The notes under the pieces are model-generated. The model was not told where the DNA came from. It saw only the letters and a program-made list of their open reading frames with translations, and made no database searches. From positions 1 to 50,302 of IMG/VR virus record IMGVR_UViG_3300012943_000011: a stretch of DNA of 50,302 nt; one strand, 5' to 3'. This stretch comes from a virus. Taxonomy: Duplodnaviria > Caudoviricetes. The position numbers and the translations under genes were made by a program. Shown here in pieces: positions 18,978-19,164 of this stretch (positions are counted from its first letter, which is position 1; the number at the start of each line of letters is the position of its first letter).

Positions 18978-19164
18978 TCAGGGCGGCCGGAGTTGAACCG
19001 GCAAGGGGCAAAAACAGCCGCCAAGCTAGATATTAGCAATTCGGCTGCGCTTTGGGGCATTGGGCCTTCTTACCGCGTTTGCGGCCCCTTAGCCTTTCGT
19101 CTCGCCCTGGCTTTCGCCTATCCAGCTCCACCCGCTGGCGCGTTTACCGTTCCGCTACGCCCTG
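18978..19164 (-). ncRNA. tRNA-like RNA with a 119-nt variable region
   Basis: CAGGGCG/CGCCCTG acceptor, class-II-type D-arm, CCAGC-GGGTGGA-GCTGG arm, T-arm GCCGG-TTCAACT-CCGGC. Confidence 0.7.

What the first reader, a model, noticed from the sequence alone, without database searches (positions are those of the whole stretch)
18978..19164. 187-nt tRNA-like RNA with a 119-nt multibranched variable arm
Seen on the minus strand: a perfect 7-bp acceptor (8 with T-1:A73), D-arm GCG-GAACGGTAAA-CGC, a 5-bp stem with purine-rich loop GGGTGGA and a canonical T-arm. The insert (19003-19121) folds into GGC-GAAA-GCC, then GGGCGAGA/TTTTGCCC enclosing GGGGC/GCCCC (with CCGC-AAAC-GCGG) and CAGCCG/CGGCTG (with GCTA/TAGC). 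Known: natural variable arms are about 25 nt at most. Intact pairing throughout argues against decay. Inference: a natural tRNA-scaffolded RNA domain.
Basis: partly seen in the sequence, partly recalled or inferred. Interest (0 to 1): 0.85.

Follow-up and report, generated by a model that had tools for sequence, protein, structure and literature searches.

The report
Phage tRNA-like RNA with large insert
A soil phage carries, inside its cluster of transfer-RNA genes, a gene with an intact tRNA frame interrupted by about 110 extra bases, so it probably makes a stable tRNA-shaped RNA that cannot decode; whether the extra part does anything is untested.

Summary
The tRNA frame is real. On the minus strand, 19164-18978 has a perfect 7-bp acceptor, a class-II-type D arm, a 5-bp hairpin at the anticodon position and a canonical T arm. 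All the usual tertiary-contact bases are present. ARAGORN in intron mode finds this frame once in the window. It makes no intron-type call in 2.0 Mb of shuffled window.

The 119-nt insert is less secure. Its fold is not better than shuffles (z -1.56; 44 of 500 as good), and one branch is ambiguous.

A second reading exists: a tRNA(CUA) split by a 103-nt insertion in the anticodon loop. A parse that clean arises in 73 of 5000 shuffles.

A second aberrant tRNA-like gene lies 5 nt upstream, at 19261-19170.

I could retrieve no homologous DNA, so covariation is untested. No RNA data were available. Related ~50-kb phages exist but were seen only as proteins.

The closest precedent is the pair of small stable RNAs (rnaC, rnaD) in the phage T4 tRNA cluster.

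Verdict: a genuine tRNA-derived gene, probably a non-decoding stable RNA. It is a new variant of a known kind, of moderate interest.

The parts
18978..19164 (-). The whole 187-nt tRNA-like gene (the finding).
   Evidence: Sequence. Cloverleaf plus insert is the minimum-energy fold. It is the only ARAGORN intron-mode call in the window.
19158..19164 (-). Acceptor stem, 5' strand CAGGGCG (RNA positions 1-7).
   Evidence: Pairs 7 of 7 with 18985-18979. Sampled frequency 0.96.
18978..18985 (-). Acceptor stem, 3' strand CGCCCUG, plus discriminator A73 (18978). No CCA is encoded.
   Evidence: In run X5 a low-depth contig reads C70 as A at 18981.
19140..19155 (-). D arm GCG-GAACGGUAAA-CGC. It has a 3-bp stem, as in long-variable-arm tRNAs, and contains A14 and G18G19.
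   Evidence: Frequency 0.84. It resembles the D arm of the phage's own tRNA-Leu, GCG-GAAUUGGUAGA-CGC (alignment).
19122..19138 (-). Hairpin at the anticodon position, CCAGC-GGGUGGA-GCUGG. G32 and G33 stand where tRNAs have Y32 and U33. GUG is at 34-36.
   Evidence: Frequency 0.83.
19003..19121 (-). The 119-nt region between the anticodon-like hairpin and the T arm. It holds hairpin GGC-GAAA-GCC, closing helix GGGCGAGA/UUUUGCCC, an ambiguous middle branch, and hairpin CAGCCG..GCUA-AUAUC-UAGC..CGGCUG.
   Evidence: Fold z -1.56, 44 of 500 shuffles as good. GC 0.563 against 0.515 for the genome.
18986..19002 (-). T arm GCCGG-UUCAACU-CCGGC, with G53-C61 and U54, U55, C56 and A58.
   Evidence: It forms part of an 18-nt stretch (RNA positions 163-180) identical to the phage tRNA-Met at 1592-1665 (E 6.5e-7).
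19031..19133 (-). Alternative reading: a 103-nt insertion ('intron') between tRNA positions 32 and 33.
   Evidence: ARAGORN -i calls tRNA(cta) i(32,103).
19020..19030 (-). Alternative reading: UCUAGC, which with C31 gives a canonical loop CUCUAGC with anticodon CUA. It is followed by UUGGC, complementary to GCCAG at RNA positions 26-30.
   Evidence: A parse this clean occurs in 73 of 5000 shuffles, and with a stop anticodon in 1 of 5000.
19170..19261 (-). Second aberrant tRNA-like gene, 5 nt upstream. It has a 7-8-bp acceptor, a D arm, a 5-bp stem closing a 26-nt loop that contains the palindrome GUCUGGCCAGAC, and a T arm with loop UGCAACU.
   Evidence: Fold z -2.36, 3 of 200 shuffles as good. 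ARAGORN calls it only at lowered thresholds. Weak Tymo_tRNA-like match, 20.5 bits against a gathering score of 40.
19263..19374 (-). 112-nt structured spacer between tRNA-Leu and the first tRNA-like gene.
   Evidence: Three hairpins, z -1.85, 7 of 200 shuffles as good. 19351-19334 is 78% complementary to 18988-18971.
19375..19463 (-). tRNA-Leu(UAA), the upstream neighbour.
18893..18967 (-). tRNA-Ile(UAU), the downstream neighbour, 10 nt after the element.

Best explanation
This is a tRNA-derived gene that no longer decodes. It still folds into the L-shaped tRNA core and carries an extra structured segment of about 100-120 nt.

Proposed mechanism:
- It is transcribed as part of the minus-strand polycistron tRNA-Leu / spacer / tRNA-like 1 / tRNA-like 2 / tRNA-Ile (inferred).
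- The intact acceptor and T-arm stack makes it a substrate for host RNase P at its 5' end. The 3' end is made by trimming and CCA addition (inferred from established tRNA processing).
- The product is a stable RNA of about 187-190 nt. Its extra segment projects from the core at the place where long variable arms leave tRNA-Leu, Ser and Tyr (inferred).
- The RNA would act as a binding platform or decoy for a host or phage factor. That function is unknown and is my guess.

It is the same kind of object as the two small stable RNAs in the tRNA cluster of phage T4.
For: Shown:
- All 20 base pairs of the four core helices are Watson-Crick. U8, A14, G18G19, G26 with A44, G53-C61, U54, U55, C56 and A58 are all in place (one search read directly).
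- The frame is statistically exceptional: 1 intron-mode ARAGORN call in the window and 0 intron-type calls in 2.0 Mb of shuffles.
- Position 26 is an unpaired G opposite A44, as in real tRNAs, when the insert is read at the variable-arm position.
- The loop GGGUGGA departs from tRNA rules at two adjacent positions while every stem stays perfect. This fits selection for shape rather than for decoding.
- A second non-canonical tRNA-like gene lies 5 nt upstream.
- The spacers of 5 and 10 nt are typical of tRNA polycistrons. All neighbouring genes are on the same strand, in a genome that is 93% coding.
- No protein family matches the two reading frames that overlap the region. No homologue was found for the 142-aa plus-strand frame.
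- Precedent: T4 rnaC (139 nt) and rnaD (119 nt) are annotated small stable RNAs at the end of its tRNA cluster. rnaC has a canonical T arm and an acceptor-like stem, and ARAGORN intron mode picks it up too.
Against: - No RNA evidence. No run on record as RNA was listed.
- No homologous DNA was found, so there is no covariation test.
- The insert folds no better than shuffles. The whole RNA reaches only z -1.86.
- One low-depth contig variant (C70 to A at 18981) would break an acceptor pair.
- Perfect stems are equally expected if the insertion is simply recent.
- The same letters allow a clean split anticodon arm with CUA. That points to an interrupted ordinary tRNA as the origin.
- No sigma-70-like promoter or minus-strand terminator was found nearby.
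Confidence: 0.5

Rival explanations
1. It is a dead gene. A class-II-type tRNA, possibly tRNA(CUA) or a Leu, Tyr or Ser tRNA, was recently interrupted by an insertion of about 100 nt. It persists only because there has been too little time for decay. Any RNA made has no function.
For: - The insert's fold is not better than chance.
- A vestigial canonical anticodon loop and 3' stem strand are still recognisable.
- The copies seen in other runs are 97.6-100% identical, so they say nothing about long-term conservation.
- One variant breaks an acceptor pair.
- The phage is a singleton in every DNA collection searched.
Against: - The inserted letters pair with the flanking tRNA letters over 5, 6 and 8 bp: CCAGC:GCUGG, CGGCUG:CAGCCG and UUUUGCCC:GGGCGAGA. 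A random insertion is not expected to do this.
- A second aberrant tRNA-like gene sits beside it.
- The phage genome is 93% coding, yet about 400 nt of non-coding, structured sequence is kept here.
- No other copy of the insert exists in the genome, so it is not a repeated mobile element there.
Confidence: 0.3
2. It is a working amber-suppressor tRNA(CUA) of the long-variable-arm class. Its anticodon loop is interrupted by a 103-nt intron that is removed from the RNA. This would be a small intron of a kind not known in bacteria or phages.
For: - After removal of 19133-19031, ARAGORN draws an 85-nt tRNA. It has a 5-bp anticodon stem GCCAG/UUGGC, loop CUCUAGC (Y32, U33, R37) and a 17-nt variable region.
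- Equal quality arises in only 73 of 5000 shuffles, and with a stop anticodon in 1 of 5000.
- The 5' end of the 'intron' pairs with the end of exon 1, and its 3' part pairs with exon 2.
- The classical amber suppressors derive from Leu, Ser and Tyr tRNAs (recalled).
Against: - ARAGORN in intron mode reports some tRNA in 391 of 400 shuffles of the middle, so its call as such carries no weight.
- The criterion used was set after seeing the parse.
- The parse leaves no nucleotide 26 between the D and anticodon stems, and the variable arm pairs poorly.
- There is no group I intron match at E up to 10. 103 nt is about half the size of the smallest group I introns (recalled). There is no U.G pair at the 5' junction, and the last intron base is A, not G.
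- I found no bulge-helix-bulge motif by inspection.
- No contig in 4 laid runs lacks the segment (joints: none).
- The phage uses the standard code and shows no in-frame TAG requirement. TAG ends 16 of 86 reading frames.
- The 55-residue TAG read-through tail of the 823-aa gene looks non-coding.
Confidence: 0.08
3. It is not an RNA gene. The region encodes a protein (142-aa plus-strand or 97-aa minus-strand frame), or the cloverleaf is a chance pattern.
For: Both open frames exist.
Against: - Neither frame matches a Pfam family.
- The 142-aa frame has no homologue at E<=0.001 among 5.8 billion proteins, and the window's own record contributes no such protein.
- The 97-aa frame starts with TTG inside tRNA-Leu.
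- The false-positive rate of the frame detector is 0 intron-type calls in 2.0 Mb.
Confidence: 0.03

Closest known systems
Phage T4 species 1 and species 2 RNAs (rnaC, 139 nt; rnaD, 119 nt)
   Same: - Two adjacent small RNA genes inside a phage tRNA cluster, on the same strand as the tRNAs.
- rnaC has a canonical T arm (CCGGG-UUCGAAU-CCCGG) next to an acceptor-like stem, with long extra hairpins in between.
- ARAGORN intron mode flags it as it flags this element.
- No Rfam family reaches its gathering score.
- Their function is still unknown (recalled).
   Different: - No sequence similarity; only 7-mers are shared.
- Here all four cloverleaf arms are kept and the extra part is one 119-nt block. 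In rnaC the extra hairpins replace the D and anticodon region.
- T4 is a virulent phage of E. coli. This is a temperate ~50-kb phage from soil.
- Stability and processing are shown for T4 (recalled) and untested here.
Long-variable-arm (class II) tRNAs: Leu, Ser, Tyr, Sec, and the irregular 'allo-tRNAs' of bacteria and alpha-proteobacterial phages
   Same: - A 3-bp D stem with a large D loop.
- An extra arm leaving the core between the anticodon stem and the T stem.
- A73.
- Mukai et al. (PMC5389517, abstract and section 13 read) report irregular tRNAs and polycistrons of irregular tRNAs in phage tRNA clusters. These include tRNA-His species without G-1 and with A73. This element also has GUG at 34-36, A73 and no encoded G-1.
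   Different: - The variable region is 119 nt, against about 25 nt at most (recalled).
- G32 and G33 stand in place of Y32 and U33, so a normal U-turn and decoding are not expected.
- The branch is 7/5, not 8/4 or 9/3.
- Their supplementary figures S2 and S3, which draw those phage clusters, could not be seen.
tmRNA
   Same: A tRNA-like acceptor and T-arm module whose two halves are separated by a large structured insert. It is an RNase P substrate (PMC11143913, passage seen).
   Different: - ARAGORN finds no tmRNA at default settings. Only implausible permuted candidates spanning several genes appear at a lowered threshold.
- G3-C70 stands in place of the G3.U70 alanine identity pair.
- Full D and anticodon-like arms are present.
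- No tag reading frame was recognised.
Bacterial tRNA genes with group I introns in the anticodon loop
   Same: In the alternative reading, an insertion in the anticodon loop has a 5' end that pairs with the end of exon 1.
   Different: No Intron_gpI match at E up to 10. The insertion is 103 nt long. There is no U.G pair at the 5' junction and no terminal G.
YrlA / bacterial Y RNA-like tRNA mimics, and plant-virus tRNA-like structures
   Same: Non-decoding RNAs that imitate the tRNA shape.
   Different: - YrlA scores 27.9 bits against a gathering score of 69. Its alignment joins this element's T arm to the D arm of the next gene, tRNA-Ile.
- Tymo_tRNA-like scores 20.5 bits against 40, and only on the neighbouring tRNA-like gene.
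Engineered 'tRNA scaffold' for expressing recombinant RNA in bacteria (recalled: Ponchon and Dardel 2007; a follow-up appears in the listing, PMC3401473)
   Same: A foreign structured RNA carried in a tRNA frame, so that the cell processes and stabilises it.
   Different: That design replaces the anticodon arm and is man-made. Here the insert sits at the variable-arm position (or in the anticodon loop) and is natural.

Membership tests
Canonical tRNA (Rfam RF00005 / ARAGORN) | 7-bp acceptor stem plus discriminator base. | tested here: met
   CAGGGCG/CGCCCUG, 7 of 7 Watson-Crick, with A73.
Canonical tRNA (Rfam RF00005 / ARAGORN) | D and T arms with the conserved tertiary-contact bases U8, A14, G18G19, G53-C61, U54, U55, C56 and A58. 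| tested here: met
   Read directly. The helices occur at 0.84 and 0.74.
Canonical tRNA (Rfam RF00005 / ARAGORN) | 7-nt anticodon loop with Y32, U33 and R37. | tested here: not met
   The contiguous hairpin has the loop GGGUGGA, with G32 and G33. A canonical loop CUCUAGC appears only if 103 nt are removed.
Canonical tRNA (Rfam RF00005 / ARAGORN) | Variable region of 4 to about 25 nt, and a score above the detectors' thresholds. | tested here: not met
   The variable region is 119 nt. ARAGORN at default settings does not call it. There is no RF00005 match at the gathering score or at E up to 10.
tmRNA | Detected by ARAGORN or Rfam; G3.U70; a tag reading frame. | tested here: not met
   No tmRNA. 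The pair is G3-C70. The candidates at the lowered threshold span several genes.
Group I intron in a tRNA gene | Match to the Intron_gpI model; U.G pair at the 5' splice site; terminal G; about 200 nt or more. | tested here: not met
   No match at E up to 10. The junctions are ccagc|ggg and aata|tctag, and the length is 103 nt.
YrlA (Y RNA-like) | Score at or above the gathering score of 69 bits, over a single RNA. | tested here: not met
   27.9 bits. The alignment runs 19024-18921 across two genes.
Small stable RNAs of phage tRNA clusters (T4 rnaC/rnaD type; an operational class, not a sequence family) | Located inside a phage tRNA cluster, on the same strand, close to the tRNAs. | tested here: met
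   The element lies between tRNA-Leu and tRNA-Ile, with spacers of 5 and 10 nt.
Small stable RNAs of phage tRNA clusters (T4 rnaC/rnaD type; an operational class, not a sequence family) | tRNA-like acceptor and T-arm module with extra structure. | tested here: met
   for this element. for rnaC.
Small stable RNAs of phage tRNA clusters (T4 rnaC/rnaD type; an operational class, not a sequence family) | Accumulates as a discrete stable RNA in infected cells. | not testable with these tools
   No run on record as RNA was listed. The single read-laying run gave contigs only.
Small stable RNAs of phage tRNA clusters (T4 rnaC/rnaD type; an operational class, not a sequence family) | Sequence homology to rnaC or rnaD. 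| tested here: not met
   blastn-short finds only 7-mers between this element and rnaC or rnaD.

The most novel reading that the evidence does not exclude
The 103 nt at 19133-19031 are a new kind of small intron in a phage amber-suppressor tRNA(CUA). The intron pairs with both exons and is removed at the RNA level, either by an unknown self-processing activity or by cleavage and ligation by host or phage enzymes. The phage would then make a suppressor only when splicing occurs.
Probability: 0.07. Interest if true: 0.9.

Novelty: new variant of a known kind. Interest (0 to 1): 0.45.

Why it matters
Phage tRNA clusters have been known for fifty years to hold small stable RNAs of unknown role (T4 species 1 and 2).

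This element would be a much clearer case of the same idea. It has a complete tRNA core, fit for the host's tRNA processing, that carries a large extra RNA block, and it sits next to a second aberrant tRNA-like gene.

If the block is conserved in the related ~50-kb phages, it would define a new RNA family. It would also be a natural counterpart of the engineered tRNA scaffold, and a handle on what such phage RNAs do.

If the block is absent or decays in those phages, the element is an interrupted tRNA gene and of little interest.

Standard annotation (ARAGORN at default settings, Rfam) misses both genes. Similar elements may therefore be under-counted in phage genomes.

Tried and rejected
Searches for homologous DNA all failed:
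- blastn of 2 kb and of 408 nt against 50,697 phage records. The listed best hits to the 2-kb query lie on tRNA-Gln, and the 408-nt query gave only 20-26-nt chance matches.
- blastn against plasmids gave two partial tRNA-Leu matches.
- Exact or degenerate patterns in IMG/VR: the D-arm 20-mer gave 0. A D-loop plus anticodon-loop pattern gave 2 chance hits in tape-measure genes. A tRNA-Leu 24-mer gave 0. A D-loop, gap, T-loop pattern gave 0.

Searches through neighbouring or conserved proteins:
- A mis-delimited 226-aa frame and the HAD protein in IMG/VR gave none.
- The head protein Hc3 gave 6 loci at 27-31% identity with no tRNAs.
- The SPFH protein gave 4 loci at 36-39% identity that are not syntenic.
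- HAD in metagenome contigs gave 1 locus at 28% identity with no tRNA.
- The Hc3 alignment in genome contigs gave 1 planctomycete locus at 30% identity. That genome has no match to the region.
- tblastn of Hc3, HAD, the 96-aa protein and the 218-aa protein against phage records gave only distant, non-syntenic hits.

Sequencing runs:
- No RNA holder was listed.
- Contigs of runs X2, X3 and X5 cover parts of 18948-19256 at 97.6-100% identity. Gaps in cover elsewhere mean nothing.
- No joint that removes the insert was seen in 4 of 4 runs, but these are contigs.

Ideas dropped:
- An RNA-repair link through the neighbouring HAD_SAK_2 gene. Its homologues, in the two other phages I looked at, sit among nucleotide-metabolism genes.
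- TAG read-through of the 823-aa gene as a client for a suppressor.
- The palindrome in the neighbouring tRNA-like gene as a repeated protein site. It is unique in the genome.
- The insert as a known ribozyme or riboswitch. There is no Rfam match at E up to 10.

Other points:
- I made an alignment for a covariance model but did not build the model, because no collection could be searched with it.
- Paper searches listed no report of a tRNA with a variable region or insertion of about 100 nt in a phage. These were word searches of open-access text only.

Full report
**Setting**

The window is a complete virus record of 50,302 bp with direct terminal repeats. It reads in the standard code and is 93% coding.

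It encodes a tyrosine integrase, an S24-type repressor and a GcrA-like protein. It also encodes a primase/helicase, terminase, portal and a P22-type head-closure protein. It is therefore a temperate tailed phage.

The GcrA-like gene and distant hits to Agrobacterium phages hint at an alpha-proteobacterial host. I did not establish this.

Everything from about 16.5 kb onward is on the minus strand. There ARAGORN finds tRNA-Leu(UAA) at 19463-19375, tRNA-Ile(UAU) at 18967-18893 and tRNA-Gln(UUG) at 18178-18105, plus a tRNA-Met at 1665-1592. Rfam confirms the first three.

The roughly 400 nt between tRNA-Leu and tRNA-Ile are called by neither tool.

**The observation**

Read on the minus strand, 19164-18978 has these parts:
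- a 7-bp all-Watson-Crick acceptor stem with A73;
- U8 and A9;
- a D arm GCG-GAACGGUAAA-CGC with A14 and G18G19;
- an unpaired G26;
- a 5-bp hairpin CCAGC-GGGUGGA-GCUGG;
- 119 nt, beginning with A44;
- a T arm GCCGG-UUCAACU-CCGGC with G53-C61 and the canonical T loop.

RNAfold returns this cloverleaf as the minimum-energy structure. In 2000 sampled structures the core helices occur at 0.74-0.96. The fourth, GGGGC/GCCCC, reaches only 0.38. It competes with GGCU/GGCC and overlaps the CCGC hairpin by one base.

**Is it more than chance?**

For the frame, yes. ARAGORN with introns allowed acts as a detector of acceptor, D and T frames with something in the middle.
- It makes one such call in the window, which is this element.
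- It makes none in 40 shuffled windows totalling 2.0 Mb.
- It makes one in 15 other loci of about 187 kb, inside T4 rnaC.

For the insert, no.
- Its energy is z -1.56 against dinucleotide shuffles, and 44 of 500 fold as well.
- The whole RNA is z -1.86, with 8 of 200 as good.

GC-rich sequence pairs easily. 'Intact pairing throughout' is therefore not evidence for the insert by itself.

**A second reading of the same letters**

ARAGORN's intron mode reports the element as tRNA(CUA) with a 103-nt intron between positions 32 and 33. In this reading:
- the anticodon stem is GCCAG/UUGGC;
- the loop is C+UCUAGC;
- the variable region is 17 nt.

The call itself means little. With the middle shuffled, ARAGORN still calls some intron-bearing tRNA in 391 of 400 cases.

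A parse as clean as this one is rarer. I required 5 pairs with at most one G.U, Y32, U33, R37 and a variable region of 4-24 nt. That occurs in 73 of 5000 shuffles, and with a stop anticodon in 1 of 5000. I set the criterion after seeing the parse, so the true surprise is smaller.

Points against this reading as a working gene:
- It leaves no nucleotide 26.
- The variable arm pairs poorly.
- There is no group I model match, no U.G at the 5' junction and no terminal G.
- 103 nt is far below group I size (recalled).
- The phage shows no need for amber suppression.

I take it as a possible trace of origin, namely an interrupted class-II tRNA, and as a low-probability rival.

Both readings share one fact. 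The extra letters pair with the flanking tRNA letters over 5, 6 and 8 bp. A random insertion would not be expected to do this.

**Neighbourhood**

Five nucleotides upstream lies a second tRNA-shaped gene, 19261-19170.
- It has a 7-8-bp acceptor and a D arm.
- A 5-bp stem closes a 26-nt loop with the palindrome GUCUGGCCAGAC.
- Its T arm has the loop UGCAACU.
- Its fold has z -2.36, with 3 of 200 shuffles as good.
- I could find no canonical 7-nt anticodon loop in it by deleting any single block (inspection).

Upstream of that is a 112-nt spacer with three hairpins.

The element's T arm lies in an 18-nt stretch identical to the phage's tRNA-Met. Its D arm resembles that of the phage's tRNA-Leu. 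The frame thus looks home-grown.

The two open frames over the region have no family match. The 142-aa frame has no homologue.

The adjacent HAD_SAK_2 gene does not point to RNA repair. In two other phages its homologues sit among nucleotide-metabolism genes.

**Relatives**

No homologous DNA could be found in phage records, plasmids, IMG/VR, JGI metagenomes or GTDB genomes by the routes open to me. The failed searches are listed under Tried and rejected.

Near-identical copies (97.6-100%) occur as short contigs in soil and wastewater runs from other studies. Two variants were listed. One is in a junction. The other changes C70 to A in the acceptor, at low depth.

A family of related phages therefore exists. 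This is the decisive missing test.

**What it most likely is**

I read it as a tRNA-derived, non-decoding RNA gene.

Shown:
- The frame is intact, including all tertiary-contact bases.
- The loop GGGUGGA departs from the tRNA rules at two adjacent positions while the stems stay perfect.
- It lies within a tRNA polycistron.
- It has a similar neighbour.

Inferred from what is established for tRNA precursors and tRNA-like substrates (PMC11143913, passages seen):
- RNase P cuts at its 5' end.
- The 3' end is trimmed and CCA is added.
- The product is stable.

In the main reading the extra block leaves the core where long variable arms do, which should not disturb the L shape (inference).

What the block does is unknown. 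My guess is a binding platform or decoy. GUG at 34-36, A73 and the absence of an encoded G-1 recall the tRNA-His pattern of some alpha-proteobacteria and their phages (PMC5389517, section 13 read). G33 makes decoding unlikely. Charging by some synthetase remains testable.

**Comparison with what is known**

The nearest known objects are the T4 species 1 and 2 RNAs. They share the place, the pairing of two genes and the tRNA-like module. They share no sequence, and their role is also unknown (recalled).

The element fails the tests for canonical tRNA, tmRNA, group I intron and YrlA (see Membership tests).

I rate it a new variant of a known kind. Interest is moderate now. It would be higher if the relatives show covariation.

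Noticed in passing
window 19170-19261 (-): A second aberrant tRNA-like gene lies 5 nt upstream of the finding. It has a 26-nt 'anticodon loop' containing the perfect palindrome GTCTGGCCAGAC, which is unique in the genome. Its T loop is UGCAACU. ARAGORN at default settings and Rfam both miss it.
   Followed up: partly
window 19263-19374 (-): A 112-nt non-coding spacer with three hairpins. Its 5' part (19351-19334) is 78% complementary to the 3' end of the finding and its trailer (18988-18971). This could be a long-range pairing or a remnant of a duplicated 5' half.
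   Followed up: no
window 1592-1665 (-): tRNA-Met(CAU) is called by ARAGORN but is not listed by Rfam at the gathering score. It appears to have a U1.U72 mismatch and an encoded CCA. It shares an identical 18-nt stretch (the T arm plus the next base) with the finding.
   Followed up: partly
window 30005-47174 (-): In my reading-frame selection, the structural and packaging frames on the minus strand end in TAA with one exception (33564-34913, TGA). Genome-wide the stops are TAA 45, TGA 25 and TAG 16 of 86 frames.
   Followed up: no
window 27159-27525: A 367-nt gap with hairpins lies downstream of the TAG-terminated 823-aa gene. Reading TAG through adds 55 residues that do not look like protein.
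   Followed up: partly
window 19372-19463, run X4: A 151-nt contig carries 92 nt identical to the tRNA-Leu(UAA) region, but with unlike sequence on both sides (record 21). The same tRNA-Leu therefore seems to exist in another genomic context, perhaps the host or another phage.
   Followed up: no
window 18976-19095, run X2: A 164-nt contig at depth 14 matches only this stretch, with 2 differences. It runs on unlike the window for 32 letters beyond 18976, which is 2 nt past the element's 3' end, and for 12 letters beyond 19095 (record 6). I could not see the letters.
   Followed up: no
window 18178-18606 (-): A HAD_SAK_2 phosphatase-like gene (Pfam E 3.9e-23) abuts the 5' end of tRNA-Gln. It has homologues in 694 phage records, mostly phages of enterobacteria plus Rhizobium phages. 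In the two records I inspected it sits among nucleotide-metabolism genes.
   Followed up: partly
window 20679-22203 (-): Three tandem paralogues (200, 152 and 154 aa) all match PHROG 18067, of unknown function. They lie next to an SPFH/Band 7 gene.
   Followed up: no
L017 and L018, 1570-1656 and 3772-3861: Two IMG/VR phage contigs with an SPFH gene carry a 9-tRNA cluster. It includes an 87-nt 'tRNA-Lys(CUU)' and a 90-nt 'tRNA-Arg(GCG)', both unusually long for those types. Gaps of several hundred nt separate some of the tRNAs.
   Followed up: no
proteins P0002-P0021: About 20 homologues of the 218-aa protein (19911-20567), at 49-67% identity, lie on contigs of up to 48-52 kb. This is a family of related phages visible here only as proteins.
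   Followed up: partly
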